From assembly GCA_964623545.1 (NCBI GenBank), contig CAZUTR010000002.1, positions 1 through 29,868 on the forward strand: a stretch of DNA of 29,868 bases. The letters are read 5' to 3'. This stretch comes from an uncultured Pirellulales bacterium (GTDB lineage: Bacteria > Planctomycetota > Phycisphaerae > Sedimentisphaerales > Anaerobacaceae). This document shows positions 2,175 to 19,676 of the stretch, in pieces (the first letter of the stretch is position 1; each line of letters begins with the position of its first letter). The position numbers and the translations under genes were made by a program. Under the pieces are notes generated by a model. That model was not told the DNA's origin, did not search any database, and saw only the letters and a program-made list of their open reading frames with translations.

Positions 2175-2951
2175 ATGAAAGTGGTTATATTATGTGGCGG
2201 TTTGGGAACCAGACTTCGTGAGGAGACTGAATTTCACCCTAAACCTATGATAGAGATAGGTGGTAAGCCAATCCTTTGGCATATAATGAAGATATATGCC
2301 CATTATGGCTTTACTGATTTTCTTCTTTGCTTAGGTTACAAAGGTGAAATGATAAAAGAATATTTTTATAACTATGGGATTTTAAACAATGATTTTACAA
2401 TAGAACTTGGGAATGGAAGAAATATAGAAATATGTAGCAATCATAACGAAGAAGGCTGGCGGGTCACTTTAGTTGATACTGGTGATAAGGCACTTAAAGG
2501 TGCTAGGTTAAAGCGTGTACAAAAATATATTGACGGTGACCAATTCGTTATGACCTACGGCGACGGAGTTGCTGATATAGACATTAATGCTCTTTTGGCC
2601 TTTCATAACAGTCACGGTAAGTTAGCTACGGTGACCGGAATCAACCCTGCTTCACGTTTTGGCGAGTTGAAGATTAAAGGTAACCAGGTTGAAAGTTTCA
2701 GAGAAAAATTAAAGACCGGTACTAGCCTGATTAGCGGCGGTTTTTTCGCCTTCAACAGCCGTTTTTTTGATTATCTTTCTGCTGATGATAATTGTGATCT
2801 GGAAGTGGGTCCTTTGGAAAAGATCACAAACGAAGGTCAAGTTATGGTTTATAAGCACACCGGATTTTGGGCATGTATGGATACTATCCGCGATGTGGAA
2901 TATTTGAATAAACTTTGGGATGACAATAAGGCTGAGTGGAAGATTTGGTAA
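2175..2951 (+). CDS. rfbF: Glucose-1-phosphate cytidylyltransferase
   Basis: VVILCGGLGTRLREETEFHPKPMIEIGG, TYGDGVADID, FWACMDT motifs. AGGAG at 2162-2166 favours ATG 2175 over TTG 2169. Confidence 0.95.
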   Translation: MKVVILCGGLGTRLREETEFHPKPMIEIGGKPILWHIMKIYAHYGFTDFLLCLGYKGEMIKEYFYNYGILNNDFTIELGNGRNIEICSNHNEEGWRVTLVDTGDKALKGARLKRVQKYIDGDQFVMTYGDGVADIDINALLAFHNSHGKLATVTGINPASRFGELKIKGNQVESFREKLKTGTSLISGGFFAFNSRFFDYLSADDNCDLEVGPLEKITNEGQVMVYKHTGFWACMDTIRDVEYLNKLWDDNKAEWKIW

Positions 2952-2957
2952 CAGATT

Positions 2958-4058
2958 ATGTTAAAAATGTTTAACGGCATTTTTCATGGCAAACGGGTTC
3001 TAATTACTGGGCACACTGGTTTCAAGGGTTCATGGCTTTCTGTGTGGTTGCGTGAGCTCGGCGCCGATGTAATTGGTTACGCGTTGGAGCCTCCTACGAA
3101 CCCGAGTCTTTTTGAAACCTGTAACCTTGAAAGTAAAGTGACCTCAATTATAGGTGATATTAGAAATCTCAAGGTATTAAAAGATGTTTTTGAGAGATAT
3201 CAGCCGGAGATAGTGTTTCATATGGCAGCCCAGGCGCTGGTGAGATATTCATACCGAGAACCAGTAGAAACTTATGAAACTAATATTATGGGGACCGTAA
3301 ATCTGATCGAGGCATGTCGACGTACCTCATCGGTCCGAGTCGTAATCGTTGTAACTAGCGATAAGTGCTATGAAAATCGCGGGGGTGTTTATAGCTTTAA
3401 GGAAATCGACCCAATGGGTGGTTACGATCCATATAGCTCAAGCAAAGGATGCGCAGAACTGATAACCGCAGCTTATACGAAGTCCTATTTCAATCCTGAG
3501 AACTTGGAAAAAAATGGTGCATTCATAGCCTCAGTTAGAGCAGGAAATGTAATAGGTGGCGGTGATTGGGGTGAAGATAGGCTTATTCCTGATTGCATTA
3601 GGGCTTTATTGGGAGGCAAACCGATTATTGTTCGTTATCCCAGCGCTGTTCGTTCCTGGCAGCATGTTTTAGAGCCGCTTTCTGGTTACCTTTTGTTAGC
3701 CCAACGTCTTTATCAGGATGGAGCTGCCTTTGCAGGTGGATGGAATTTTGGATCAGACAATAAGGACGCTAAGCCAGTCAGGTGGCTTGTTGACCGGATA
3801 ACTAAAATGTGGGGTGGTAATGTCTCTTGGGAAATCGACCAAGACAATAATCCACACGAAGAGCATTGCTTAAAATTGGATTGCTCTAAGGCAAAATCAG
3901 AGCTTGGCTGGTACCCACAATGGGATTTGAGATTAGCATTAAAGAATACAATTGATTGGTATAAAGCATATTGCAATCATGAGGATATGCTAAGGATGAC
4001 AATAAATCAGATTCAAAGTTACGAAAAAAGTGTTGAGGAAAAAGAAGTTCTCCAATGA
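2958..4058 (+). CDS. rfbG: CDP-glucose 4,6-dehydratase
   Basis: ITGHTGFKGSWL, VTSDKCYEN, DPYSSSKG, RAGNVIGGGDW, WQHVLEPL motifs; adjacent to rfbF. Confidence 0.95.
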   Translation: MLKMFNGIFHGKRVLITGHTGFKGSWLSVWLRELGADVIGYALEPPTNPSLFETCNLESKVTSIIGDIRNLKVLKDVFERYQPEIVFHMAAQALVRYSYREPVETYETNIMGTVNLIEACRRTSSVRVVIVVTSDKCYENRGGVYSFKEIDPMGGYDPYSSSKGCAELITAAYTKSYFNPENLEKNGAFIASVRAGNVIGGGDWGEDRLIPDCIRALLGGKPIIVRYPSAVRSWQHVLEPLSGYLLLAQRLYQDGAAFAGGWNFGSDNKDAKPVRWLVDRITKMWGGNVSWEIDQDNNPHEEHCLKLDCSKAKSELGWYPQWDLRLALKNTIDWYKAYCNHEDMLRMTINQIQSYEKSVEEKEVLQ

Positions 4059-5281
4059 ATTGCCGATTTTGCAGCAACAAACTTACACATCTTTTTGTAT
4101 CTCTTGGTCCTTGCCCTTTATCTAATTCTTATCTTACCCAGGACCAATTGAATCAAATGGAGCCGTTTTATCCTTTGGATGTATATGTATGTGAAAGGTG
4201 TTTTTTGGCCCAATTAGATGAGGTGGTGTCTGCCAAAGATATTTTCTCCTCGCAGTACGCTTACTTTTCTTCATATTCCAAGAGCTGGCTGGAGCACTGT
4301 GAAAACTATACGGAATTGATGGTTAGCCGTTTCGGTCTCAACAAAGATTCTTTTGTTGTTGAAATAGCAAGTAACGATGGATATCTGCTGCAATATTTTA
4401 AACAATATAATATTCCCGTTTTAGGCATAGAACCGGCAGCAAACACTGCGCATGCGGCCCGGGAAAAAGGCATCGAAACATTAGAAGAATTTTTTGGTGT
4501 CCAATTGGCTGAAAGTCTTGCAAAAGAAGGTGAAAAGGCCGACCTGATTATCGGTAATAACGTTTTGGCTCATAATCCTAATCTTAACGATTTTGTGGAT
4601 GGGTTGCGAATTCTCTTGAAGCCGGATGGAGTTATCACGATGGAGTTTCCCCATTTGCTCAGACTTATTGAGGGAAATCAATTTGATACGATTTATCATG
4701 AACATTTCTCATATTTCTCTTTTTATACGGTGCGAAACTTGTTCGCTGCTCATGATATTGTGCTTTTTGATGTTGATGAAATTCCTACACATGGCGGGTC
4801 ATTACGTATCTACGGCAAACACAAAGAAGATGGCTCCAAACCTATCACGAATCGCGTTGAACATTTATTAGAGAAAGAGAAATCGGCTGGCTTATTGGAT
4901 TTGAAAACATATTATACTTTTGGTGAGAAAGTCAAAACAACAAAAAGAAAATTGCTTGATTTTTTAATCAAAGTAAAAATCAGCGGAAAGAAAGTAGTCG
5001 GGTATGGAGCGCCCGCTAAGGGAAACACACTTTTAAATTACTGTGGAGTAGGGGTGGATTTTCTTGATTACACCGTAGATCGCAGTCCACACAAGCAAAA
5101 CAAGTATTTGCCAGGCACTCATATCCCAATCAAACATCCGGATAAGATAAAGGAAGATAAATCTGATTATGTTTTAATTCTTCCATGGAATATCAAGGAT
5201 GAAATTGTGGAGCAGATGGATTATATCAGGGAATGGGGAGGGAAATTTGTAATACCAATTCCAAAAGTAAGTGTGATTTAG
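4055..5281 (+). CDS. NDP-hexose 3-C-methyltransferase (TylCIII/EryBIII/NovU-like; Zn-binding N-terminus)
   Basis: CRFC...CERC zinc ligands, VVEIASNDGYLL SAM motif, FDTIYHEH, THGGSLR, GYGAPAKGNT C-terminal domain. ATGA overlap with rfbG. Confidence 0.88.
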   Translation: MNCRFCSNKLTHLFVSLGPCPLSNSYLTQDQLNQMEPFYPLDVYVCERCFLAQLDEVVSAKDIFSSQYAYFSSYSKSWLEHCENYTELMVSRFGLNKDSFVVEIASNDGYLLQYFKQYNIPVLGIEPAANTAHAAREKGIETLEEFFGVQLAESLAKEGEKADLIIGNNVLAHNPNLNDFVDGLRILLKPDGVITMEFPHLLRLIEGNQFDTIYHEHFSYFSFYTVRNLFAAHDIVLFDVDEIPTHGGSLRIYGKHKEDGSKPITNRVEHLLEKEKSAGLLDLKTYYTFGEKVKTTKRKLLDFLIKVKISGKKVVGYGAPAKGNTLLNYCGVGVDFLDYTVDRSPHKQNKYLPGTHIPIKHPDKIKEDKSDYVLILPWNIKDEIVEQMDYIREWGGKFVIPIPKVSVI

Positions 5282-5866
5282 GTGAGATTTAAAGAAACAA
5301 AACTTAACGGCGTTTATATTATTGAATTAGAACCGTTGGAAGATGAGCGGGGGTTTTTTGCCCGTTCGTTCTGCCGGAATGAGTTTAAGGAGCATGGTCT
5401 AAATCCCCGTATCGTCCAGTGCAGCATCTCTTACAACAAGAAGAAAGGCACATTACGAGGTATGCATTATCAGGTGGCTCCTCACGAGGAGGTAAAACTG
5501 ATTAGCTGTGTGAGGGGGGGAATATATGATGTACTCATAGATTTGCGCCCGGCTTCCCCGACTTACTGTCAATGGTTTGCAGTAACTCTTTACGGTTTTG
5601 ATTTCAATAGTGCTGATTCATCCATAAACGCGGATACTCACAAAGTCATGTATGTACATGAAGGTTTTGCTCATGGTTTTCAGACTTTGGAAGATAACAC
5701 AGTAGTCTCTTATCAGATGTCTGAGTTCTATCACCCGGAATGCGCCAGAGGCGTGCGATGGGATGACCCGGCGTTTGGGATAAAGTGGCCTGAAATGCCA
5801 ACTCTAATTAGTGAACGAGATAGAAACTATTCTCTTTATGAGGCTGTAGCAGGAAAACGGGCTTAA
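5282..5866 (+). CDS. rfbC: NDP-4-keto-6-deoxyhexose 3,5-(or 5-)epimerase, RfbC/RmlC cupin family
   Basis: DERGFFAR, GTLRGMHYQ, EGFAHGFQTLED, RWDDPAFGIKWP. GTG start immediately after the upstream TAG. Substrate is probably CDP-linked given the context. Confidence 0.9.
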   Translation: MRFKETKLNGVYIIELEPLEDERGFFARSFCRNEFKEHGLNPRIVQCSISYNKKKGTLRGMHYQVAPHEEVKLISCVRGGIYDVLIDLRPASPTYCQWFAVTLYGFDFNSADSSINADTHKVMYVHEGFAHGFQTLEDNTVVSYQMSEFYHPECARGVRWDDPAFGIKWPEMPTLISERDRNYSLYEAVAGKRA

Positions 5867-6058
5867 ATCTTATTGAACCATTGCCGGATAATTGGTCATG
5901 TGTTAGTTATTTGGGTGGTCTCTATTATATACGGCCGTCAAAACCCAGAGCATGCTAATTCTATTGGCAATAGTCTCGCTCATTAACACTGGCAGTATCA
6001 TCAAATCCACGAGGTTGCCACGCAAGCTTGCCGCAGTCTCTCTCCATAAGGTGCAGAA

Positions 6059-6823
6059 ACGAAAGATTTTGGTGTAGCCATTTTCGCTGACAAGGAGGTT
6101 GGGAAGAGAACAGTTGAGTATCTTCTACGGGGCTATTCTGGTCATGTGAGGTATTTGGTTCTGACTGACCAGGGTTCAGAGATTCTTTCTTTGGCTTTGG
6201 CCGCCGGCTTTGACAAGGATTTCATATTCTTCGGTAAGGACTTGTACAATGAGAGTGTCTTGAGCAGGATAAAAGAGATAAGTGTTAGCTACATTTTCCT
6301 GGCTTGGTGGCCTTTTATAGTTAAAGAGCCAATTCTTTCTCTTCCCCGAATTGGAGTTCTGAATTTTCATCCGAGTCTCTTGCCTTACAACAGGGGCAAA
6401 CATTACAACTTCTGGACCATTGTGGAAGAGACCCCCTTTGGTGTATCTATCCATTTTATTAATGAATCAGTTGATAGCGGGGATATTGTCTTTCAGAAGA
6501 AGATAGAAAAAACATGGGAGGATAATGGCAAGACCCTCTATGAAAAAGCTCAGGAAGCTATGTTTGAACTGTTTGTAGAGAGCTATCCCAAGATTGTAGA
6601 TTCACAGTACGTTCGTATTAAACAGAATAAGAACGAAGGAAGTTTTCATCTGGCCAGAGAACTGGAGCCGGCATCACAAATATTCTTGGATGAGAAATAT
6701 AAAGCTAAAGACCTGTTGAATCTGTTAAGAGCAAGGACTTTTCCTCCTTATTCTGCGTGTTATTTTTTTGACAGAGGCGGAAAATATGAAGTCACCGTTG
6801 AAATAAAAAAGGTGGAAGAGTGA
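6059..6823 (+). CDS. NDP-aminosugar N-formyltransferase (GART/Fmt fold)
   Basis: Catalytic N-x-H (LNFHPSLLPYNRG) and Asp (VDSGDI). Frame is open from 6050. The family-like N-terminal strand (VAIFADKEVGK) lies upstream of the tracked GTG 6146. Start placed at ACG 6059 behind AAGGTG; start is uncertain. Confidence 0.82.
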   Translation, partial: TKDFGVAIFADKEVGKRTVEYLLRGYSGHVRYLVLTDQGSEILSLALAAGFDKDFIFFGKDLYNESVLSRIKEISVSYIFLAWWPFIVKEPILSLPRIGVLNFHPSLLPYNRGKHYNFWTIVEETPFGVSIHFINESVDSGDIVFQKKIEKTWEDNGKTLYEKAQEAMFELFVESYPKIVDSQYVRIKQNKNEGSFHLARELEPASQIFLDEKYKAKDLLNLLRARTFPPYSACYFFDRGGKYEVTVEIKKVEE

Positions 6824-6825
6824 CT

Positions 6826-7560
6826 ATGAATCATCAGGAGTTTGAGAAAGCGAACAAAGAAAAAATTGCAGAAATGCAGAAGAGTGAGAGGGTCAAGAGT
6901 TTGACAAGAGACTGGTTTGTTCATGTGTCAAAGCATGAGTATTCTTACCATTTCACTTGGCTCGGTCGTCCTATTATTCAATTTCCCCAGGATATTGTTG
7001 CCATGCAGGAAATAATCTGGCAGACAAGACCCGATTTAATTATCGAAACAGGGATTGCCCGCGGAGGTTCTCTAATCTTTTATGCTTCTATGCTTGAGCT
7101 GCTCGGTGGCAGTGGCCAGGTTCTGGGCATTGACGTAGACATTCGGCAACATAACCGACTGGAAATTGAAAAGCATCCTATGTTTAAGAGAATTACGATG
7201 ATTCAAGGTTCATCGGTTGACCGATTTGTTGTTCAGCAAGTTTATGATTTTGCAAAAGGGGAAAAACGCATTCTGGTAGTTTTAGATTCTAATCATACCT
7301 ATGAGCATGTGTTAAAAGAACTACAACTGTATTCTCCTTTGGTGGATGAGGGTAGTTATCTTGTTGTTTTTGATACAGTTATTGAAGATATGCCGGAGGA
7401 TTCCTTTCCTGACCGTCCCTGGGGAAAGGGAAATAATCCCAAAACAGCAGTTCGGGAATTCTTGAAAACAAATGATCGCTTTGAGATTGATAAAGAAATT
7501 GAAAATAAACTGCTTATAACTGTAGCTCCGGATGGTTTCCTGAAATGCGTAAGGAATTAG
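6826..7560 (+). CDS. CmcI / cephalosporin-hydroxylase-family protein, likely SAM-dependent sugar O-methyltransferase (Rv2959c-like)
   Basis: YSYHFTWLGRPIIQFPQD, PDLIIETGIARGGSL, VVLDSNHT, PDRPWGKGNNP, ITVAPDGFL are characteristic of the family. ATG 6826 or GTG 6820. Confidence 0.85.
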   Translation: MNHQEFEKANKEKIAEMQKSERVKSLTRDWFVHVSKHEYSYHFTWLGRPIIQFPQDIVAMQEIIWQTRPDLIIETGIARGGSLIFYASMLELLGGSGQVLGIDVDIRQHNRLEIEKHPMFKRITMIQGSSVDRFVVQQVYDFAKGEKRILVVLDSNHTYEHVLKELQLYSPLVDEGSYLVVFDTVIEDMPEDSFPDRPWGKGNNPKTAVREFLKTNDRFEIDKEIENKLLITVAPDGFLKCVRN

Positions 7561-8684
7561 TCGCAGAACGTATCCCTGTATCGGGCCCTTGGATTACTCA
7601 GAAAGAGATTGATTACGTAACCGATGCAGCAACAAACGCCTGGTATGGTGAAGCCAACGTATACAACGAGCGTTTCGAAAAGGCGTTTGCAGAATACGTA
7701 CGTGTACGCTTTGCTATTTCCCTGCCCTCTTGTACTTCTGCTATCCATTTATCTCTTTTGTCTCTTGGCGTTGGTCCCGGTGATGAGGTTATTGTTCCTG
7801 ATATAACCTGGATTGCCACTTCAGCTCCAATTACTTATGTTGGAGCAACTACTGTTTTTGCCGATATTGATCAAGACACCTGGTGCTTATCAGCGGAGTC
7901 GTTTGAGCAGTGCGTAACACCACGGACCAAAGCTGTTATTCCGGTAGATCTCTATGGTGGGATGCCAGCTATGGATAGTATTTGTGAAATTGCTCAGCGG
8001 CATGGAATTGCTGTAATAGAAGACGCTGCTGAAGCTATCGGTTCTGAATATAAGGGTCAGAGAGCCGGCAGTTTTGGAGATACGGGAGTGTTTAGTTTCC
8101 ATGGTTCCAAGACCCTGACCACCGGTGAAGGTGGGATGTTGGTGACCGATAGCGAATATTTGCGCAATCGAGCGCTTGTTCTCCGCGATCATGGGCGTCC
8201 TCCTGGCGACACGATGTTCTGCAATACGGACGTCGCCTTCAAATACAAGATGAGCAGCATGCAGGCGGCGTTGGGCACGGGCCAGATTGAACGAATTGAG
8301 GAATTGATTGACCGAAAACGACGGATTTTTTCCTGGTATAAAGAAAGACTGAAAGATGTCGAGGCGGTTACGCTGAATTACGAGGCCGAGGATGTGAAAA
8401 ATACTTATTGGATGGTGTCGGTTATCATCGATAAGAAACTGGGATTGAAAAAGGAACAATTGATGAAATTGCTTGCGGAGAAAAACATAGAAAGCCGCCC
8501 GTTTTTCCGGCCTTTGAGTTCCATTCCCGCCTACAAGGGTTGTGAGCAGGCTGAGCTTGCAAGGAGCCGCAATCATGTAAGCTACAGTATTGCTCCTTTT
8601 GGAGTGAATCTTCCCAGCGGATTGAACTTGGATGAAGAAAAGGTTGAATATGTTTGCGACGTCTTGCGTGACCTGCTCTGCTGA
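7545..8684 (+). CDS. DegT/DnrJ/EryC1/StrS PLP-dependent sugar aminotransferase (perosamine-synthase-like)
   Basis: SCTSAIHL, GDEVIVP, IEDAAEAIG, SFHGSKTLTTGEGGM (PLP lysine), GVNLPS. Confidence 0.93.
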   Translation: MRKELVAERIPVSGPWITQKEIDYVTDAATNAWYGEANVYNERFEKAFAEYVRVRFAISLPSCTSAIHLSLLSLGVGPGDEVIVPDITWIATSAPITYVGATTVFADIDQDTWCLSAESFEQCVTPRTKAVIPVDLYGGMPAMDSICEIAQRHGIAVIEDAAEAIGSEYKGQRAGSFGDTGVFSFHGSKTLTTGEGGMLVTDSEYLRNRALVLRDHGRPPGDTMFCNTDVAFKYKMSSMQAALGTGQIERIEELIDRKRRIFSWYKERLKDVEAVTLNYEAEDVKNTYWMVSVIIDKKLGLKKEQLMKLLAEKNIESRPFFRPLSSIPAYKGCEQAELARSRNHVSYSIAPFGVNLPSGLNLDEEKVEYVCDVLRDLLC

Positions 8685-8713: not shown

Positions 8714-8978
8714 AAAAACAGGTCGCTGTAACTTGAGATACATTGTACACCCAAGCATGGCAGTCGGCTAAGTGTAGCGGAGATAGAACCCAGCATATTC
8801 ACCAGAAATTGTTTGTATCGACGAATACCAGATATCGAAACATTGCAACAAGAAGTAGAAGCATGGAACCGTAAACAAAATGCAAATCAGAAAACAGTGG
8901 ATTGACAATTTACAAACGAAGAAGTAAGAGTGAAGTCGAAAAGATTATATCCACAAATTCAAATGTTATTAGGTACTA
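8714..8978 (+). mobile_element. Decayed IS630-family element: 3' end of transposase plus right end
   Basis: Frame from 8732 reads LEIHCTPKHGSRLSVAEIEPSIFTRNCLYRRIPDIETLQQEVEAWNRKQNANQKTVD*QFTNEEVRVKSKRLYP. This matches the IS630 C-terminal consensus as recalled (HYTPKHGSWLN.AEIE...W.FT...AR.KLKRLYP). TGA at 8903-8905 replaces a Trp. Ends in GTACTAG (8973-8979); IS630 elements target TA/CTAG. Confidence 0.82.
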
Positions 8979-10462
8979 GCCTGAAGCTCAATACCTTGGC
9001 CAACTTTGCGGGCAGGGCCTGGACTACACTGCTGGCCTTTCTTTTCATTCCCATTTACATCAAAGTGCTGGGGATTGAATCGTGGGGATTGATTGGTTTC
9101 TTCACGACGCTCCTGGCAGTGCTCAACCTGCTCGATCTGGGGCTTAGCTCGACGCTGAACCGTGAACTGGCGCGTCTCTCGGCGGAACAGGATAAGGGGC
9201 GCGAGCAACGCGACCTGGTGCGCACACTCGAGATGATCTATTGGGTCGTTGCAATGTTGCTCGGTCTGCTTGTGCTGGCGGCTGCCCCTGTTATCGCTCG
9301 CTACTGGATAAACTCTCAGGAACTACCCGTTGGAACCGTTACCTCCGCTGTTCGCATGATGGCGCTGGTCTTCATTTTACGATTCCCAGTCGCTTTATAC
9401 CAAGGCGGCCTGATGGGATTGCAGCGACAGGTTCTTTTGAATGGGATTCTGGGCGGAATGGGCACATTACGAAGCGTGGGTGCCGTCGCCGTTTTATGGT
9501 GGATTTCGCCGACAATTCAGGCCTTTTTTATCTGGCAATTACTTGTCAGCGCCTTTCAGACCCTTGCGCTCAGGTCGTACCTTTGGAGGCTGTTGCCCCA
9601 CGATACAGTTCGACCGCGGTTTCAAAAGGAGTCTCTCTTGGGAGTCTGGCGTTTCGCCACCGGTATGGCCGGAATCGCGCTGGTTACGGTCTTTCTGACG
9701 AACCTGGATAAAGTGCTTCTCAGCAAGTTACTGACCCTGGAGAGATACGGTTACTACATGGTGGGCGCCTCGGCGGCAGGCGGCATCTATATTTTGGTAG
9801 CACCGTTTTATATCGCAGCATTCCCACGGTTTTCGCAAATGGTGGCGGCGGGAGAGCATGAGCAGGTTGCGAGACTTTACCACTTGCTGTGCCAAAGCGT
9901 TGCCGTTGTGGTTCTGCCGGTTGTCGCCGTTGTCTCAGTGTTTTCGCCCGAGGCGCTGATGATATGGACGAGGAATCCGGCGATAGTTGAAAACTCCCAC
10001 TTATTTGTTTCCCTGCTGGTTATTGGAACCGGGCTGAACGGCCTAATGAATATTCCATACGCTCTTCAGTTGGCTAGCGGATGGACGAAACTCGCTTTCT
10101 ATCAGAACGTTGTCTCGGTTAGCGTTGCTGTTCCCGCTCTTATTATCTTAACACGATTATACGGCGGCGTTGGCGCGGCCGTTATCTGGGTTGTGCTGAA
10201 TGCGTCATGGGTGCTGATTACTCCCCATATTATGCATCGCCGGTTATTTACAACGGAAAAGTGGCGATGGTATTTTGGAGATGTGGCAAAGCCCTTATTG
10301 GGGGTTGTTGTTGCAGCGGGCGTTGTTCGATTGCTCGTTCCTTTTGAGATGCTTGGTCTCTGGACGCAGTTTCTTATCTTGGGTACAACATGGGCCTTGG
10401 CCGTAGTGATGGCAGTTTCCCTTACGCCGAGCCTTCGGGGAGTATTATTCAAAAGCGCTTAA
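8963..10462 (+). CDS. wzx: Wzx O-unit flippase (MOP superfamily)
   Basis: Many TM segments; SLKLNTLANFAGRAW...IPIYIKVLGIESWGLIG, LDLGLSSTLNRE, NLDKVLLSKLL. Start uncertain (ATG 8963 or GTG 8930, both in IS-derived sequence). Confidence 0.9.
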   Translation: MLLGTSLKLNTLANFAGRAWTTLLAFLFIPIYIKVLGIESWGLIGFFTTLLAVLNLLDLGLSSTLNRELARLSAEQDKGREQRDLVRTLEMIYWVVAMLLGLLVLAAAPVIARYWINSQELPVGTVTSAVRMMALVFILRFPVALYQGGLMGLQRQVLLNGILGGMGTLRSVGAVAVLWWISPTIQAFFIWQLLVSAFQTLALRSYLWRLLPHDTVRPRFQKESLLGVWRFATGMAGIALVTVFLTNLDKVLLSKLLTLERYGYYMVGASAAGGIYILVAPFYIAAFPRFSQMVAAGEHEQVARLYHLLCQSVAVVVLPVVAVVSVFSPEALMIWTRNPAIVENSHLFVSLLVIGTGLNGLMNIPYALQLASGWTKLAFYQNVVSVSVAVPALIILTRLYGGVGAAVIWVVLNASWVLITPHIMHRRLFTTEKWRWYFGDVAKPLLGVVVAAGVVRLLVPFEMLGLWTQFLILGTTWALAVVMAVSLTPSLRGVLFKSA

Positions 10463-10646: not shown

Positions 10647-11861
10647 ATGGTCAAGTTTACAATAATTATCCCAACACGAGAACGCTGCGATACTCTGGAG
10701 AGTTCTCTTCAGACGTGTGTGAGGCAGGAGTATGACAATTTAGAGATTATCGTAAGTGATAATGACAGTGGGGATAACACTCGTGACGTGGTGGAGTCGT
10801 TTAGAGATAATCGGGTCAAATACGTGAATACGGGTGAAAGGCTCAGTATGTCGGCCAATTGGGAATTTGCACTGTCACAGGTTGACAGTGGCTACATTAT
10901 TTATCTTGGAGATGATGACGGCATGCTGCCTGAGGCTATCATAAGTTTGAATCGGATTATTGAGGACACGGGGACCGAGGCGGTCGGATGGCGGTCAGCT
11001 GAATACCATTGGCCCAGACATCCAGACAAAGCCGTGCGAAACATGCTCAATATACCTCTCGGGACATCTTTGGAAAAACGCGATTCCAAAGAAATGCTGA
11101 CTGATGTGATTAATATGAAGCGTTCTTACCGTGAGCTTCCTTTTTTGTATAAGGGGGCGGTGAGTTACGAACCCGTTAAGCGAATATCACTTGAATCAGG
11201 GCGTTTTTTTAACTCTTTAACTCCTGATGTATATTCGGGGATTGTTCTGGCAAGTGTCATCGACTCCTATTACTATTCCCAGAGTCCTTATTCAATTAAT
11301 GGAGCCTCTCATCACAGCGTCGGTACATCAGGTTTCAGCGTGGGTTCTGACAAGAAAGCGCTAAATAAATACCTGAGCGAAGACAATATTCCGTTTCACC
11401 CCAAGTTGGTTATGGTGCCGTCAGTGCCGATTTTGGTGGCTGAATGCATTTTGCAGGCGCATGAGCATGTTGCGGAGTCGCGGCAGTTTGCGGTTGACAT
11501 TAAACATGTAATGGAGACTGTGGCCAGGCAGACGGTGAATTTACGAGGCGAGCAGTATGAGGCTGTTATAGGTGCGATAAAAGAGATAGCGAGACTTAAC
11601 AATCTTGAAGGATGCTTATCAGAAATTATTGTGCCGCGCAGGCAGCGCTGTGACCAAGCTGTCAGGTCCATACCCGGGATCAATCCGCTCAGGAAAACTC
11701 TTCTGGTGGATTGTTCGCAATTCGGTGCATCCAATGTGTTCGAAGCCAGTTTACTTTGCAGACACCTGCTGGCCTTAAGAGGGATGAATTATTTTTCCTT
11801 GAGAGGCATTGCGAAAACGACGATTGGTTTGCTCAAAAGAGAGTTTATAAAGAGGTCGTAG
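10647..11861 (+). CDS. GT2 family glycosyltransferase with C-terminal extension
   Basis: FTIIIPTRER, IIVSDNDSGD, NWEFAL, YLGDDDG (DxD). Confidence 0.88.
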   Translation: MVKFTIIIPTRERCDTLESSLQTCVRQEYDNLEIIVSDNDSGDNTRDVVESFRDNRVKYVNTGERLSMSANWEFALSQVDSGYIIYLGDDDGMLPEAIISLNRIIEDTGTEAVGWRSAEYHWPRHPDKAVRNMLNIPLGTSLEKRDSKEMLTDVINMKRSYRELPFLYKGAVSYEPVKRISLESGRFFNSLTPDVYSGIVLASVIDSYYYSQSPYSINGASHHSVGTSGFSVGSDKKALNKYLSEDNIPFHPKLVMVPSVPILVAECILQAHEHVAESRQFAVDIKHVMETVARQTVNLRGEQYEAVIGAIKEIARLNNLEGCLSEIIVPRRQRCDQAVRSIPGINPLRKTLLVDCSQFGASNVFEASLLCRHLLALRGMNYFSLRGIAKTTIGLLKREFIKRS

Positions 11862-11868
11862 CGAGGGA

Positions 11869-12588
11869 ATGAAGGAACTCATTAGAAAGGTTGCACGGCG
11901 AATCGGAGTGGAGGTTACCATGTACCGGCCTGAAAATTCTGATATGGCCAAGCTGCAAAAAATGCTGTCATGTCATCAAATAGAGCTTGTGCTCGATGTG
12001 GGAGCCAATAAGGGTCAATATGCCCGGCAACTCAGGCTCGGGGGATACAAGGGCAGGATTGTGTCTTTTGAGCCACTTTCGAGCGCTCATAAAATACTTT
12101 TTCAGCGGAGTGACGGGGACAGCAACTGGGTCGTGGCGCCGCGAATGGCAATTGGCGATAAAGACGGAATTACGCAAATCAATATCTCTGAGAATTCGGT
12201 AAGCAGTTCGCTCAAGCTCATGACAAGGGCACACCTCGAAGCGGCGTCGGCAGCCCGTTACATCGGGACGGAGGAAATAACCATTTCGCGGCTGGACAGT
12301 GTTTGCCATGAGTATATAAATGGAGACAGCAGGGTGTTTTTGAAGATAGACACTCAGGGCTTTGAGCGACAGGTTCTGGAGGGCGCTGAGAAGACATTGC
12401 CTCTGATTGAGGGAATTCAGATAGAGCTTTCTCTGGTTCCCTTATATGAGGAGCAGTTGCTATTCGCAGAGATGATAAACAGACTGAATGCTTTGGGTTT
12501 TGAGCTATACGGACTTTTCCCTGGTCTGACGGATCCGCGGAAGGGGAGACTTCTTCAGGCCGATGGAATACTGTTTAGAAGTTTGTAA
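11869..12588 (+). CDS. FkbM-family methyltransferase (Rv2956-like sugar O-methyltransferase)
   Basis: VLDVGANKGQY, IVSFEP, FLKIDTQGFE, GIQIELSLVPLYE, DPRKGRLLQADGILFR. Confidence 0.88.
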   Translation: MKELIRKVARRIGVEVTMYRPENSDMAKLQKMLSCHQIELVLDVGANKGQYARQLRLGGYKGRIVSFEPLSSAHKILFQRSDGDSNWVVAPRMAIGDKDGITQINISENSVSSSLKLMTRAHLEAASAARYIGTEEITISRLDSVCHEYINGDSRVFLKIDTQGFERQVLEGAEKTLPLIEGIQIELSLVPLYEEQLLFAEMINRLNALGFELYGLFPGLTDPRKGRLLQADGILFRSL

Positions 12589-12763: not shown

Positions 12764-14209
12764 ATGATAAGGTTTGACCATTGGTCATTTTACTGGATAT
12801 TCTTTGTTGTTTTATTCTCATCGGCCGCTATTTTTAGACCCCGCATGTTCGCGCTGATATTGCCTTTGGTTTTTTTCTGGACGGCAAGAGCATTCTTTCT
12901 CATTGACTGGAGCGTTCTAAAATTAGTGCTTTTTCTGTTTCTAATCTCTATTGCTCTCAATGGTTTTCCCCGCCAGATTTCTTCATTACCGAATCGTAAG
13001 GCTTTAATCGTCTTTATTTTGCTTTTTGGGGCATGGTCCGTTTACGCAGCATTTCACGTTCCCGAGTCTGCACTAATAGGGGTTGTGCGTTCCGCTGTAC
13101 ATCGTCCTCCGCTAAGGGGTATAGTAAGAACCTTTTACTTTATGTCTTTTATTTTGGCCCTGCCCATTGCTTTTTGGGGAATACATGGGAAGGCGGATTT
13201 TTCAAAGGTTCTACGCATATTTTTTATAACGGCTTTGGTCGCAGCCATTGTCGGAGTAGTCGAGATGTTTGCCGTTAGATTTGTGCCCTCCCTTGACAAT
13301 CTTTGGCGTTTTTTCAATGTAGGCAATGTCGTTGAAATAGTTGGGGAGAAAAAAACGTTTACCAGTTGTAGGCCCTGCCCGTTCGTTTATGAACCTCGAT
13401 ATTTTGGATATGCTATGGGATTTACAGCCTGCCTGGCTTTTCTTTGTAGAATCTTCCCTGTTTCCGGTGTTCCAAAATGGGCTACCCGCATTCCTTTCAT
13501 AGGTACCTGTTTCCTTTTATCGCTCGCAAGCGCATCTGTCTCTGCAGTGGCCGGTGTCTTGTTTGGTTTTACTGCGATTACGGTTTGGCTTGTAGCTTGC
13601 AAAAGGATTGTTCAAAAACATAAGCTTAAGTACGTATTTTTCTTTATAATCCTGGTTTTAATTTTTTTGTTGAATACTCAATTATTACAGCATCGTTTAT
13701 ACGGTTATTTATTCAGTGCTGGACTGGCGGACGAATCCGGGCTAACCAAAAATGCATTTGAAAGTCAGCGGGGCATGCTCTCAACTAATGCATATCTATA
13801 TTGGTTTATCAACCAGCCTAAATATCTGTTAATTGGCTCAGGGTTCGGAAACGGCTGCTTTTATTGCTTCAAATTTCTTCCTTACTTTAGCGGCTGGCTG
13901 GAAGCAGGATTTTTGACTGCAAGGTTGCCAATCATTGACTTGATATCAGATATCGGAATCCTGGGGATGTTATTCTTGTTCGGTTTATGGATAAGGTGGT
14001 GGAGAAAAATAGGCACATTAAGCAAGCAGACCGAAGACGTCGAGAGTATGCATTGCCTGGAAATTATTTGTGGAATACTCCTTTTTTTAATCATAAGCGG
14101 ATTCTGGTTTGAAACGCATGTCTTGACATGGTTCTTTTTTGGAGTGGCACTTGCATTGACAGCAGCAAACAATCCAGAGGCCGACTATGATGACAACAAT
14201 CTTGGCTGA
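12764..14209 (+). CDS. wzy: Wzy O-unit polymerase (polytopic membrane protein)
   Basis: About 10-12 hydrophobic segments, periplasmic loops (PFVYEPRYFG; GSGFGN...IIDLISDIGILG typical of Wzy_C), low GC, position among the GTs. A ligase-type function is not excluded. Confidence 0.72.
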   Translation: MIRFDHWSFYWIFFVVLFSSAAIFRPRMFALILPLVFFWTARAFFLIDWSVLKLVLFLFLISIALNGFPRQISSLPNRKALIVFILLFGAWSVYAAFHVPESALIGVVRSAVHRPPLRGIVRTFYFMSFILALPIAFWGIHGKADFSKVLRIFFITALVAAIVGVVEMFAVRFVPSLDNLWRFFNVGNVVEIVGEKKTFTSCRPCPFVYEPRYFGYAMGFTACLAFLCRIFPVSGVPKWATRIPFIGTCFLLSLASASVSAVAGVLFGFTAITVWLVACKRIVQKHKLKYVFFFIILVLIFLLNTQLLQHRLYGYLFSAGLADESGLTKNAFESQRGMLSTNAYLYWFINQPKYLLIGSGFGNGCFYCFKFLPYFSGWLEAGFLTARLPIIDLISDIGILGMLFLFGLWIRWWRKIGTLSKQTEDVESMHCLEIICGILLFLIISGFWFETHVLTWFFFGVALALTAANNPEADYDDNNLG

Positions 14210-15074
14210 GTTACCGAGAATTACTATTGTTACGCCCTTATATAACGGTGGAAAATTTCTGCGCGAGACCATCGAATCGGTCATAAATCAAAATTATGCA
14301 AATTTTGAATACTATATCGTTGACGGCGCAAGCACCGATAGCAGTGTAGACATCATTCGCGAGTATGCACATAGAGTCGATTGGTGGATAACCGAGAAAG
14401 ACCATGGGCAGTCTGATGCGATAAATAAGGGTTTTGCAAGGGCCACCGGTGAGCTTTTTTGCTGGGTCAACAGCGATGATATCCTGTTTCCAGGCTGTCT
14501 TGAAGCGGTTGCCGAATGCTATCTCATTCAAAATCAGCCGGATATTATTCACACTAACGTCGCGTACATAGATGCAGAAACAAGGATAACGCGATTCATA
14601 CGTGTGCCGCGACAGAGCAGGTTTTTCTTTTTTCGAGGTGTATGGCATGGAGCTGCACCCAGCATCTTCTTTAAAACATCGCTTATGCAAGCTGTAGGAG
14701 GACTTGATAAGAATCTACATTTGTCAATGGATATAGACATCTGGATGAAGATGATGAAGGCCGGGGCCAGAGTGGCGCATATACCGGAATATCTCGGAGG
14801 TTTTCGTCAACATGAGACCTCAAAGACCGTAGTGTCGAAAAATTCAAGAAAGACGTGTGAGAACTCGGAAACAACCCGAATACTCAACGGGAATATTCAG
14901 GGTTCGACAATCCCCAGGCGAGAATTCTGGCGCAGAATATACAAGCTTTACCAGGTTTTGAACCTTAACTATTTACGGGCAGCCGGGGATTTGCGTAGAA
15001 TTTCAGACCCAATGTACCTGCGGCGGATGTTAGCTGAGAAGAGACCTTCATTCTGTGGGGAATCAGAAAGTTAG
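14187..15074 (+). CDS. GT2 family glycosyltransferase
   Basis: ITIVTPLYNG, IVDGASTD, GQSDAINKGF, WVNSDD, MDIDIW. Confidence 0.9.
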   Translation: MMTTILAELPRITIVTPLYNGGKFLRETIESVINQNYANFEYYIVDGASTDSSVDIIREYAHRVDWWITEKDHGQSDAINKGFARATGELFCWVNSDDILFPGCLEAVAECYLIQNQPDIIHTNVAYIDAETRITRFIRVPRQSRFFFFRGVWHGAAPSIFFKTSLMQAVGGLDKNLHLSMDIDIWMKMMKAGARVAHIPEYLGGFRQHETSKTVVSKNSRKTCENSETTRILNGNIQGSTIPRREFWRRIYKLYQVLNLNYLRAAGDLRRISDPMYLRRMLAEKRPSFCGESES

Positions 15075-15867
15075 GGTGGCGGTGAAAAAGTTTAAAATCA
15101 AGCGTCTCAAAGATGGTCGTGCAATGTTGAATTTGGCTTGCGGTTACAAAATTCATCCGGAATGGACCAACATCGATTTTTCTCCTTTGGTAAAACTTGC
15201 CAGGCATAAGAACTTGGCTGGGCTGTTGAAAAGGGTCGGCATACTTTCGGAAAAGCGCTATCAGAGAGTTTTGCGGGTTGATACGGAGACTATTTTGTGG
15301 GATTTGAGGAAGGGAATTCCGTTCGGTGACAAACTTTTTGATGTTGTATATCACTCTCACTTTCTTGAACATTTGGACAAGGATGCGGCTTATTTGTTTT
15401 TGAGGGAATGCTATAGGGTTCTTAAACCTTGCGGTGTCATCCGGGTGGTGGTGCCGGACCTTGAGATAAGATGCCGAAATTATTTGAATACATTGGAGGC
15501 GGCGGTTGGGGTAGAGGCGAATGAGGGCGATTTTTATTCTTCGCATGAGCAATCCATAAGGAGATTGGTGGGTCAGATGGTGCGGAATGAACCTGCCGGG
15601 ACTGCGGAGCAGCCGTTGCTTGTGCGAAAAATTGAAAGTTTTGTTCGTGGTGATACGGCAAAGGCGGGAGAAATTCATCGATGGATGTATGACAGTGTGA
15701 CTTTGAGACAGTTGCTTTTGAAGAGCGGATTTACGGACGTTTCTCTGGAATCTTACAGTTCCGGAAGAATCAAGGATTGGTTGTCATTCAATCTGGATTC
15801 TGATGATGGGGATTCTTACAAGCGTGATTCAATTTATATTGAAGGTGTAAGGGGAGCGGATTTGTGA
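15055..15867 (+). CDS. Class I SAM-dependent methyltransferase (Methyltransf_11-like)
   Basis: MLNLACG motif I, WDLRKGIPF, YHSHFLEHL, RVLKPCGVIRVVVPDL, HRWMYD. Start is GTG 15055 or ATG 15124. Confidence 0.8.
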   Translation: MGNQKVRVAVKKFKIKRLKDGRAMLNLACGYKIHPEWTNIDFSPLVKLARHKNLAGLLKRVGILSEKRYQRVLRVDTETILWDLRKGIPFGDKLFDVVYHSHFLEHLDKDAAYLFLRECYRVLKPCGVIRVVVPDLEIRCRNYLNTLEAAVGVEANEGDFYSSHEQSIRRLVGQMVRNEPAGTAEQPLLVRKIESFVRGDTAKAGEIHRWMYDSVTLRQLLLKSGFTDVSLESYSSGRIKDWLSFNLDSDDGDSYKRDSIYIEGVRGADL

Positions 15868-19645: not shown

Positions 19646-19676
19646 GCGTTATGACAGCAAAGGAAACGAGAGGCTT

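What the first reader, a model, noticed from the sequence alone, without database searches (positions are those of the whole stretch)
2175..8684. Seven-gene cassette predicting a CDP-linked 3-C-methyl-4-formamido-4,6-dideoxyhexose (N-formylkansosamine-like sugar)
Seen: tightly packed rfbF, rfbG, 3-C-methyltransferase, RfbC-type epimerase, N-formyltransferase, CmcI-family protein and DegT aminotransferase, with no 4-ketoreductase or 3-dehydrase in the block. Known: RfbF/RfbG make CDP-4-keto-6-deoxyglucose; TylCIII-type enzymes methylate C3; DegT enzymes aminate a ring ketone; the CmcI-family Rv2959c is a rhamnosyl 2-O-methyltransferase. N-formylkansosamine is a mycobacterial glycolipid sugar, and CDP-vinelose is a precedent for CDP-linked 3-C-methyl sugars. 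Inference: with C3 quaternary, amination must be at C4, giving a branched, formylated, possibly 2-O-methylated L-sugar. I do not know of a characterised CDP route to it, or of this sugar in a Wzy-type polymer.
Basis: partly seen in the sequence, partly recalled or inferred. Interest (0 to 1): 0.82.

Follow-up and report, generated by a model that had tools for sequence, protein, structure and literature searches.

The report
Seven-gene CDP branched amino-sugar cassette
Seven linked genes in a bacterial surface-polysaccharide locus most likely build a rare methyl-branched, N-formylated amino sugar on a CDP carrier; the cassette is widespread in environmental bacteria, I found no paper characterising it, and this copy's formyltransferase has lost its start codon.

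Summary
Window 2175-8684 holds, on the + strand, rfbF, rfbG, a TylC3-type C-methyltransferase, an RmlC-type epimerase, a sugar N-formyltransferase, a CmcI-family methyltransferase and a Lys-bearing DegT aminotransferase. There is no ketoreductase or dehydrase in the block.

The same seven genes occur together in 38 of 80 related loci from at least 11 phyla, in two fixed orders. gmd is usually absent from those loci.

Sibling cassettes on annotated plasmids act as natural substitution controls:
- A reductase replaces DegT+FT (Methylocystis, S. meliloti pSymB, B. cereus).
- A NeuD/VioB-type N-acetyltransferase replaces FT (Peteryoungia).
- CmcI stays with the 3-C-methyl sugar even when there is no amine (S. 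meliloti).

This supports a CDP-4-formamido-4,6-dideoxy-3-C-methyl-hexose, probably L-series and O-methylated.

Caveats:
- In this window the formyltransferase has ACG where its closest relatives have ATG. The first canonical start lies 29 codons inside the conserved N-terminus.
- Stereochemistry, the O-methyl position and the nucleotide preference of the late enzymes are inferred, not shown.
- CDP-linked 3-C-methylation already has a characterised precedent (B. cereus CDP-cereose).

Verdict: a new variant of a known kind, of moderate interest.

The parts
2175..2951 (+). rfbF, glucose-1-phosphate cytidylyltransferase (makes CDP-D-glucose)
   Evidence: TIGR02623 equivalog scores 353.7 bits against a cutoff of 300.25. 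ATG at 2175 is preceded by AGGAG.
2958..4058 (+). rfbG, CDP-glucose 4,6-dehydratase (makes CDP-4-keto-6-deoxy-D-glucose)
   Evidence: TIGR02622 equivalog scores 500.8 bits against a cutoff of 278.45, over the full-length profile.
4055..5281 (+). NDP-hexose C-methyltransferase (TylC3/TcaB9 type), predicted to methylate C3
   Evidence: PF08421 (Zn domain), a SAM domain and PF08484 are all present. PDB matches: TylC3 1.6e-88, 5t64 2.3e-75, TcaB9 2.5e-68. It is 55% identical to the C-methyltransferase of a B. cereus rfbF-rfbG-CMT operon; CxxC...CxxC and YHEH are conserved.
5282..5866 (+). RmlC-type 3,5-(or 5-)epimerase
   Evidence: TIGR01221 scores 160.8 bits against a cutoff of 155.75; PF00908 scores 200.8 bits. 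PDB match to RmlC 1ep0, 5.3e-38.
5867..6058 (.). 192-nt non-coding spacer that interrupts the otherwise coupled block
   Evidence: No ORF, no significant RNA fold (z-score 0.63), and no promoter or terminator signal above the shuffled background.
6059..6823 (+). Sugar N-formyltransferase. ACG sits at 6059-6061 where the closest relatives have ATG; the first canonical start is GTG at 6146.
   Evidence: PF00551 + PF18216. The in-frame upstream 29 codons match the conserved N-terminus of homologues, and the Asn/His/Asp triad (N102, H104, D139) is present. Nearly all relatives examined have ATG/GTG/TTG upstream of the conserved FAD..VG segment. PDB best matches are 4-amino-sugar N-formyltransferases (4nv1 8e-27, 6v33, Rv3404c, VioF).
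6820..7560 (+). CmcI-family SAM methyltransferase, predicted sugar O-methyltransferase (O-2 most likely)
   Evidence: PF04989 scores 316 bits. The NCBIfam rhamnosyl O-methyltransferase model scores only 102.6 bits against a cutoff of 400. CmcI 2bm8 matches at 4e-11. A homologue lies near FT in 69 of 80 loci. A 51% identical homologue sits in the amine-free S. meliloti pSymB gene set.
7545..8684 (+). DegT-family PLP aminotransferase, predicted to act at C4
   Evidence: PF01041 scores 370.8 bits. PDB best match is GDP-perosamine synthase 3bn1, 6e-84. The PLP lysine is conserved (SFHGSK).
8737..8950 (+). Remnant of the C-terminus of an IS630-family transposase, with an internal stop
   Evidence: tblastn against plasmids finds 207 records, the best at about 50-60% identity, annotated as IS630 family transposase.
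8963..10462 (+). Wzx (MOP) flippase that travels with the cassette in other genomes
   Evidence: PF13440; 12 hydrophobic segments. Homologues at 42-47% identity lie directly after the cassette in other loci; 14 loci have a homologue overall.
10647..11861 (+). GT2 glycosyltransferase, a weak candidate for the transferase of this sugar
   Evidence: PF00535. Homologues at 30-36% identity lie just downstream of the cassette in 8 loci. This is suggestive only.

Best explanation
The block is a self-contained nucleotide-sugar pathway that feeds a Wzx/Wzy-type surface polysaccharide.

The first two steps follow from established family function:
- RfbF makes CDP-D-glucose.
- RfbG makes CDP-4-keto-6-deoxy-D-glucose.

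The remaining steps are inferred from homology and gene linkage:
- The TylC3-type enzyme adds a methyl group from SAM at C3 through the enolate next to the 4-keto group.
- The RmlC-type enzyme epimerises C5 (and C3, if it acts before methylation), giving an L-series 4-keto sugar.
- The DegT enzyme transaminates the only remaining ketone, at C4.
- The formyltransferase formylates that amine using N10-formyl-tetrahydrofolate.
- The CmcI-family enzyme O-methylates the sugar, most likely at O-2.

The predicted product is CDP-4-formamido-4,6-dideoxy-3-C-methyl-(2-O-methyl)-L-hexose, an N-formylkansosamine-like sugar.

In this particular copy the formyltransferase has ACG in place of its start codon. 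Formylation may therefore be weak or lost, which would leave the free 4-amino sugar.
For: - Family assignments pass curated cutoffs for rfbF, rfbG and rmlC, and Pfam gathering scores for the other four genes.
- The C-methyltransferase is 55% identical to the one in a B. cereus rfbF-rfbG-CMT operon. That operon type makes the CDP-3-C-methyl sugars cereose and cillose (Li et al. 2017, doi 10.1074/jbc.M117.777417, cited in PMC10050317 and PMC7725333; enzymology from memory).
- DegT keeps the PLP lysine, and its best solved relatives are C4-aminotransferases.
- The best solved relatives of FT act on 4-amino-4,6-dideoxy sugars, and FT has the C-terminal dimerisation domain PF18216.
- All seven genes are co-directional within 7 kb in 38 of 80 related loci from at least 11 phyla. 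They occur in two fixed orders with no room for a reductase. gmd is present in only 10 of the 38.
- Natural substitutions support each role. Methylocystis has rfbF-rfbG-CMT-rfbC followed by an oxidoreductase. S. meliloti pSymB has rfbF, rfbG, CMT, rfbC, an SDR and CmcI but no DegT or FT. Peteryoungia has a NeuD/PglB/VioB N-acetyltransferase (TIGR03570, 177 bits) exactly in the FT slot.
- A homologous Wzx follows the cassette in 14 loci.
Against: - No enzyme here has been assayed. The product, the order of steps, the stereochemistry and the O-methyl position are all inferred.
- The formyltransferase lacks a canonical start codon for its conserved N-terminus.
- DegT's closest solved relative uses a GDP-sugar, and gmd is in the window.
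- Two related loci (L068, L079) carry the rmlC-CMT-DegT-FT-CmcI module beside rmlA and wzm/wzt, with no rfbF/rfbG in view. The carrier nucleotide may therefore differ between lineages.
- Family membership alone does not exclude C5 methylation. From memory, NovU of the same family methylates C5.
- CmcI could instead methylate the tertiary 3-OH, or act after glycosyl transfer.
Confidence: 0.6

Rival explanations
1. Two separate pathways lie side by side. In this reading DegT+FT convert the Gmd product into GDP-N-formylperosamine. Meanwhile rfbF/rfbG/CMT/RmlC/CmcI, together with the distant SDR at 21925-22920, make a reduced CDP-6-deoxy-3-C-methyl-2-O-methyl-L-hexose (vinelose-like).
For: - DegT's best solved relative is GDP-perosamine synthase (6e-84).
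- gmd is in the window (TIGR01472, 543 bits).
- An SDR of unassigned function lies at 21925-22920.
- Amine-free vinelose-type gene sets do exist.
Against: - gmd occurs in only 10 of 38 complete cassettes, whereas rfbF/rfbG are always present. No reductase is ever inside the cassette.
- The SDR at 21925 has no homologue that passed the filter in any of the 80 loci.
- In the window, gmd abuts an fcl-like gene (NF047922 best hit), which points to GDP-L-fucose.
- FT is closer to dTDP-Qui4N formyltransferases than to the GDP-perosamine formyltransferase (8e-27 against 4e-10).
Confidence: 0.1
2. The cassette is decaying in this genome. Under this reading the formyltransferase is a start-codon pseudogene. 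The cell would then make the unformylated 4-amino sugar or nothing, and the locus is a mosaic that has been disturbed by an insertion sequence.
For: - ACG sits at 6059 where the closest homologues have ATG. There is no ATG/GTG/TTG until 29 codons into the conserved N-terminus, whereas nearly all relatives examined have a canonical start before that segment.
- An unusual 192-nt spacer lies upstream of FT.
- An IS630 remnant lies directly after DegT.
- GC content is 0.39-0.47 in the cassette and 0.53 in wzx.
Against: - The 29 upstream codons are intact, in frame and conserved, including the invariant G15. An AAGGTG Shine-Dalgarno-like motif lies 5 nt before the ACG.
- A single T-to-C assembly error, or weak non-canonical initiation, would explain the same data.
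- The other six genes are full length.
Confidence: 0.25
3. The enzymes are as assigned but the regiochemistry differs. The C-methyltransferase might methylate C5 (noviose-like). Alternatively, the CmcI-family enzyme might methylate O-3 or act on the finished polymer. Either would give a different sugar from the one predicted.
For: - Family-level assignment does not fix regiochemistry.
- The CmcI protein fails the NCBIfam rhamnosyl O-methyltransferase equivalog (102.6 bits against a cutoff of 400).
- At least three loci (L028, L030, L033) lack CmcI, so it is an optional tailoring step.
Against: - The C-methyltransferase is 55% identical to the B. cereus CDP-sugar C-methyltransferase homologue. 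From memory, the characterised enzymes of that operon type methylate C3.
- All solved relatives are named as 3-C-methyltransferases or are members of that family.
- From memory, CDP-vinelose and kansosamine both carry 2-O-methyl together with 3-C-methyl.
Confidence: 0.1

Closest known systems
CDP-cereose / CDP-cillose operon of Bacillus cereus (Li et al. 2017, J Biol Chem 292:7636)
   Same: The first three steps match: rfbF, rfbG and a TylC3-type C-methyltransferase acting on a CDP-4-keto-6-deoxyhexose. Identities to a B. cereus plasmid homologue are 49% (rfbF), 47% (rfbG) and 55% (CMT).
   Different: The B. cereus operon ends with a 4-ketoreductase. It has no epimerase, aminotransferase, formyltransferase or CmcI, and its products are neutral D-series sugars that decorate spores.
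CDP-vinelose (6-deoxy-3-C-methyl-2-O-methyl-L-talose, Azotobacter vinelandii; from memory), and the matching uncharacterised gene set on S. meliloti pSymB
   Same: Both involve a CDP carrier, 3-C-methyl, the L-series and 2-O-methyl. pSymB carries rfbF, rfbG, CMT, rfbC, an SDR and a CmcI homologue at 51% identity.
   Different: C4 is reduced to a hydroxyl rather than aminated and formylated. The genes for vinelose itself have, to my knowledge, not been assigned.
N-acylkansosamine / N-formylkansosamine of mycobacterial lipooligosaccharides and glycopeptidolipids
   Same: The predicted sugar skeleton is the same: 4-acylamino-4,6-dideoxy-3-C-methyl-2-O-methyl-L-hexose. The sugar is named in PMC4403928; its structure is from memory.
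   Different: The mycobacterial sugar sits on glycolipids, not on a Wzx/Wzy polysaccharide. Its pathway is uncharacterised and presumably dTDP-based. The manno configuration cannot be inferred for the window.
dTDP-Qui4NFo and GDP-N-formylperosamine pathways (WbtJ, VioF, Rv3404c; Per + WbkC)
   Same: The last two steps match: a C4 aminotransferase followed by an N10-formyl-THF-dependent N-formyltransferase with the Asn-His-Asp triad and a small C-terminal dimerisation domain.
   Different: Those pathways use dTDP or GDP carriers and unbranched sugars, with no C-methylation, epimerisation or O-methylation.
TylC3, TcaB9 and KijD1, the dTDP-sugar C3-methyltransferases of antibiotic deoxysugars
   Same: The three-domain architecture and conserved motifs are shared.
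   Different: Their substrates are dTDP-linked 2,6-dideoxy or 3-amino sugars from actinomycete secondary metabolism.

Membership tests
Glucose-1-phosphate cytidylyltransferase (RfbF/DdhA) | Score above the curated equivalog cutoff over the full-length profile | tested here: met
   TIGR02623 scores 353.7 bits against a cutoff of 300.25, covering profile positions 1-255 of 255.
CDP-glucose 4,6-dehydratase (RfbG/DdhB) | Score above the curated equivalog cutoff over the full-length profile | tested here: met
   TIGR02622 scores 500.8 bits against a cutoff of 278.45. The dTDP model scores only 112.9 bits and the GDP model 52.3 bits.
TylC3/TcaB9-type NDP-hexose C-methyltransferase | N-terminal four-Cys zinc domain, SAM-binding domain and C-terminal PF08484 domain | tested here: met
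   PF08421 82 bits, PF13489 47.8 bits and PF08484 227.8 bits. CRFC...CERC and YHEH are visible in the alignment.
TylC3/TcaB9-type NDP-hexose C-methyltransferase | Methylation at C3 of a 4-keto sugar, here CDP-linked | not testable with these tools
   Inferred from 55% identity to a B. cereus CDP-operon homologue and from all solved relatives belonging to the 3-C-methyltransferase family.
RmlC-type 3,5-epimerase | Score above the curated equivalog cutoff; cupin fold family PF00908 | tested here: met
   TIGR01221 scores 160.8 bits against a cutoff of 155.75, only just above. PF00908 scores 200.8 bits.
Sugar N-formyltransferase (WbtJ/VioF/Rv3404c type) | Formyl_trans_N core with a catalytic Asn-His-Asp, plus the N_formyltrans_C domain | tested here: met
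   PF00551 67.1 bits and PF18216 43.6 bits. N102, H104 and D139 are invariant in alignment A1 and present in the window.
Sugar N-formyltransferase (WbtJ/VioF/Rv3404c type) | An intact, translatable gene that includes the conserved N-terminal strand and loop | tested here: not met
   ACG sits at the position of Met1. The first ATG/GTG/TTG is 29 codons downstream, whereas nearly all relatives examined start before the conserved segment. This could be an assembly error, which is not resolvable here (one search found no second copy).
DegT/DnrJ/EryC1/StrS sugar aminotransferase (as opposed to E1/ColD dehydrase) | PLP-binding lysine retained; dehydrases have His at this position | tested here: met
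   SFHGSK aligns with SFFGNK of C. crescentus perosamine synthase. PF01041 scores 370.8 bits.
GDP-perosamine synthase | Uses GDP-4-keto-6-deoxymannose; genomic linkage to gmd | tested here: not met
   gmd accompanies only 10 of 38 complete cassettes, and rfbF/rfbG accompany all of them. Substrate preference itself is not testable here.
CmcI / rhamnosyl O-methyltransferase family (PF04989) | Pfam domain above the gathering score | tested here: met
   PF04989 scores 316.4 bits against a cutoff of 23.2.
Rv2959c-type rhamnosyl 2-O-methyltransferase (NCBIfam NF045824 equivalog) | Score above the equivalog cutoff | tested here: not met
   102.6 bits against a cutoff of 400. It is a family member but not an orthologue, so 2-O specificity is an inference.

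The most novel reading that the evidence does not exclude
The cassette family is a widespread pathway, present in at least 11 phyla, for which I found no published characterisation. It would contain a CDP-sugar C4-aminotransferase and a CDP-sugar N-formyltransferase, and would put an N-formylkansosamine-type sugar, so far known to me only from mycobacterial glycolipids, into Wzx/Wzy and ABC-transporter polysaccharides of many environmental and plant-associated bacteria. It appears to be modular, with N-acetyl, non-O-methylated and reduced sibling versions.
Probability: 0.5. Interest if true: 0.55.

Novelty: new variant of a known kind. Interest (0 to 1): 0.45.

Why it matters
If the prediction holds, it assigns a product to a gene cassette found in dozens of genomes. 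These include cultivable Cupriavidus, Agrobacterium, Bosea, Paraglaciecola and Synechococcus strains.

It would add CDP-linked amino sugars to the tailoring chemistry so far described mainly for dTDP, GDP and UDP sugars. It would also give a genetic handle on kansosamine-type sugars, whose biosynthesis appears uncharacterised even in mycobacteria.

The modular sibling cassettes (reductase, N-acetyl, with or without O-methyl) make it a tidy system for studying how surface-sugar diversity is generated.

It is not conceptually new. Every enzyme belongs to a well-known family, and the logic mirrors established deoxysugar pathways.

Tried and rejected
- **Literature search.** They found no paper on this cassette or on a CDP-4-formamido-3-C-methyl sugar. 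The library covers open-access papers only, and the key B. cereus paper (PMC5418060) is not held.
- **Exact-protein lookup.** A lookup of the window's C-methyltransferase found no contig.
- **Second copy of the FT start region.** A metagenome pattern scan for this region, meant to check ACG against ATG, gave no hits.
- **The 192-nt spacer.** It shows no significant RNA fold and no promoter or terminator enrichment.
- **Formyltransferase on plasmids.** tblastn against PLSDB plasmids found only two haloarchaeal hits, so the formyl version is not on catalogued bacterial plasmids.
- **IS630 fragment.** Pfam did not recognise it; tblastn did.
- **SDR at 21925-22920.** I rejected it as the pathway's missing 4-ketoreductase. 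It matches only generic SDR families, and no homologue passed the filter in any of the 80 loci.
- **C3 amination.** I rejected this because no 3,4-ketoisomerase is present and the cupin is a bona fide RmlC family member.
- **Structure prediction.** None was run, because it would not settle nucleotide or regiochemical specificity.

Full report
**What is in the window.** All substantial ORFs lie on the + strand. The window reads as one surface-polysaccharide locus, in this order:
- a Wza-like exporter fragment (3-773) and a Wzz/PCP-like protein (794-1822);
- the seven-gene block;
- a MOP flippase, several GT2/GT4/GT9/GT1 glycosyltransferases and two further methyltransferases (FkbM type and Methyltransf_11);
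- a 10-segment membrane protein with no family hit (12764-14209, a plausible Wzy);
- an unassigned SDR (21925-22920);
- gmd (TIGR01472, 543 bits) abutting an fcl-like gene, then a UXS/ArnA-C-terminal-like SDR and Wzi.

Gmd's best named relatives, at 81-82% identity, are from Planctomycetota metagenome-assembled genomes. That is only a weak taxonomic hint.

| Gene | Coordinates | Main evidence |
|---|---|---|
| rfbF | 2175-2951 | TIGR02623, 353.7 bits (cutoff 300) |
| rfbG | 2958-4058 | TIGR02622, 500.8 bits (cutoff 278) |
| C-methyltransferase | 4055-5281 | PF08421 + SAM domain + PF08484 |
| RmlC-type epimerase | 5282-5866 | TIGR01221, 160.8 bits (cutoff 155.75) |
| N-formyltransferase | 6059-6823 | PF00551 + PF18216 |
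| CmcI-family methyltransferase | 6820-7560 | PF04989, 316 bits |
| DegT aminotransferase | 7545-8684 | PF01041, 371 bits |

Neighbouring genes overlap or nearly abut, except for a 192-nt spacer before the formyltransferase. No second SDR and no E1/ColD-type dehydrase is in the block. DegT retains the PLP lysine (SFHGSK aligned with SFFGNK of perosamine synthase).

Homologues of the formyltransferase are about 255 aa long, but the listed ORF here is 225 aa, starting from GTG 6146. The in-frame upstream sequence reads TKDFGVAIFADKEVGKRTVEYLLRGYSGH. This matches the conserved N-terminus of the family, including the invariant Gly. The codon aligned with Met1 of the closest homologues is ACG (6059-6061), and an AAGGTG motif lies 5 nt upstream of it.

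Nearly all of the roughly 60 relatives examined have an ATG, GTG or TTG before the conserved FAD..VG segment. The window has none between the upstream stop and GTG 6146. This could be a recent start-codon loss, weak non-canonical initiation, or a single-base assembly error. I could not find a second copy to decide between these. The catalytic Asn-His-Asp triad is intact.

**Comparative evidence.** A profile of the formyltransferase retrieved 80 loci from one-genome-per-species bacterial collections. I searched these with tblastn using all the window's proteins.
- All seven genes are co-directional within 7 kb in 38 of the 80 loci. Most of the remaining loci are short contigs.
- Two orders dominate. 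The window's order, rfbF-rfbG-CMT-rmlC-FT-CmcI-DegT, occurs in 12 loci. The order rfbF-rfbG-rmlC-CMT-DegT-FT-CmcI occurs in 24.
- Going by the record titles, complete cassettes come from Bacillota, Bacteroidota, Pseudomonadota, Chloroflexota, Acidobacteriota, Spirochaetota, Nitrospirota, Planctomycetota, Fibrobacterota, Cyanobacteriota and Verrucomicrobiota.
- Cultured strains with complete cassettes include Cupriavidus, Agrobacterium tumefaciens, Paraglaciecola, Parvibium and Synechococcus; Bosea robiniae has all seven genes with rfbG inverted.
- Gene starts are spaced by gene lengths, so no reductase is hidden inside the cassette.
- gmd (at least 45% identity) is within the fetched flanks of only 10 of the 38 complete loci.
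- A Wzx homologue at 42-47% identity directly follows the cassette in several loci, and 14 loci have a homologue overall.

**Natural substitution controls.** Searching annotated plasmids with the C-methyltransferase and with CmcI revealed sibling cassettes.
- *B. cereus pRML01* has rfbF-rfbG-CMT followed by an SDR-like stretch. Its C-methyltransferase is 55% identical to the window's. This is the operon type reported to make CDP-cereose and CDP-cillose (Li et al. 2017, cited; the paper itself is not held, so the enzymology is from memory).
- *A Methylocystis plasmid* has rfbF-rfbG-CMT-rfbC in the window's order, followed by an NAD(P) oxidoreductase.
- *S. meliloti pSymB* has rfbF-rfbG-CMT plus rfbC, an SDR and a CmcI homologue at 51% identity, with no DegT or FT (see also PMC4053727). 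CmcI therefore goes with the branched 6-deoxy sugar, not with the amine.
- *A Peteryoungia plasmid* has rfbF-rfbG-rmlC-CMT-DegT, then a NeuD/PglB/VioB-family N-acetyltransferase (TIGR03570, 177 bits against a cutoff of 160.8), then CmcI. An N-acetyltransferase thus occupies exactly the formyltransferase slot.
- *Loci L028, L030 and L033* lack CmcI.

These swaps are what one expects if three things hold: DegT deals with the C4 ketone that a reductase would otherwise handle; FT acylates the resulting amine; and CmcI is an optional O-methylating decoration.

**Mechanism.** RfbF and RfbG produce CDP-4-keto-6-deoxy-D-glucose; this follows from established family function. The remaining steps are inferred:
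- SAM-dependent C3 methylation;
- epimerisation by the RmlC-type enzyme to the L-series;
- PLP-dependent amination at C4;
- N-formylation;
- O-methylation, most likely at O-2 by analogy with vinelose and kansosamine. O-3 or post-transfer methylation is not excluded.

The solved-structure matches agree with these assignments. DegT is closest to the C4 enzyme perosamine synthase (6e-84). FT is closest to formyltransferases of 4-amino-4,6-dideoxy sugars (4nv1 8e-27; 6v33; Rv3404c; VioF). It is weaker to 3-amino-sugar enzymes and to the GDP-perosamine formyltransferase.

**Rival explanations.**
It has only the DegT homology in its favour and is contradicted by the linkage statistics and by the gmd-fcl pairing.
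- *A different nucleotide carrier.* Carrier preference of the late enzymes is not proven. The Cyanobium locus L068 and the Bdellovibrionales locus L079 carry the five tailoring genes beside wzm/wzt and a true rmlA, with no rfbF/rfbG in view.
- *Decay of the cassette in this genome.* This is a real possibility, given the ACG codon, the spacer, an IS630 transposase remnant directly after DegT and the compositional mosaic (cassette GC 0.39-0.47, wzx 0.53).

**Novelty and score.** I found no paper on this cassette or its predicted product in the searchable library. The library covers open-access papers only, so this is a limited test. Every enzyme family is well known and the pathway logic is standard. 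The first three steps have a characterised CDP precedent, and the predicted sugar skeleton is known from mycobacteria.

What would be new is the CDP-linked amination and formylation branch, its breadth across phyla, and its place in Wzx/Wzy and ABC-transporter polysaccharides. I rate it a new variant of a known kind, with interest 0.45.

Noticed in passing
window 6059-6146: The formyltransferase has ACG where its closest relatives have the ATG start codon. The conserved 29-codon N-terminus is intact and in frame but has no canonical initiator. An AAGGTG motif lies 5 nt upstream of the ACG.
   Followed up: yes
window 8737-8950: A C-terminal remnant of an IS630-family transposase, with an internal stop (W to stop), lies between DegT and wzx. 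The listed wzx start (GTG 8930) lies inside the remnant, so the real start is probably ATG 8963.
   Followed up: yes
window 8963-10462; loci L048, L016, L029, L034, L063, L042: A Wzx flippase homologue at 42-47% identity directly follows the cassette in other genomes. The flippase therefore seems to travel with the sugar genes.
   Followed up: partly
L085 8339-8995 (Peteryoungia desertarenae plasmid): This cassette variant has a NeuD/PglB/VioB N-acetyltransferase in the formyltransferase slot, which predicts an N-acetyl version of the sugar. The same plasmid also carries a second, divergent rfbF-rfbG-CMT-rfbC set on the other strand.
   Followed up: partly
L084 (S. meliloti pSymB), L083 (Methylocystis plasmid): These are amine-free sibling gene sets: rfbF, rfbG, CMT, rfbC and an SDR, with CmcI also present in S. 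meliloti. They look like candidates for vinelose-type sugars, and I am not aware of an assigned product.
   Followed up: partly
L068, L047, L079: In two cyanobacterial loci and one Bdellovibrionales locus, the tailoring genes sit beside a wzm/wzt ABC transporter, with no rfbF/rfbG in view. L068 and L079 have a true rmlA nearby. This hints at use in ABC-transporter-type O-antigens and possibly a different carrier nucleotide.
   Followed up: partly
L006, L007 (Hyphomicrobiales and an unclassified MAG): These variants lack the C-methyltransferase. They run rfbF-rfbG, then an unexamined gap of about 800 nt, then rmlC, a divergent DegT, FT and CmcI. That would give an unbranched formamido sugar.
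   Followed up: no
window 16944-18416: A 490-aa protein with no firm family assignment. It has weak matches to an uncharacterised nucleotidyltransferase domain (PF14907) and to P-loop/thymidylate-kinase-like domains. Its ORF overlaps the upstream GT1 ORF by 92 nt.
   Followed up: no
window 28636-29595: In this 319-aa ORF only the first ~50 residues match RNase HII. The rest has no family hit, so it may be a fusion or a mis-called start.
   Followed up: no
window 19563-20750: A GT9 (heptosyltransferase-family) glycosyltransferase sits inside a Wzx/Wzy/Wzi-type locus. The locus also holds two extra methyltransferases (11869-12588, FkbM type; 15055-15867), which suggests a heavily methylated glycan.
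   Followed up: no
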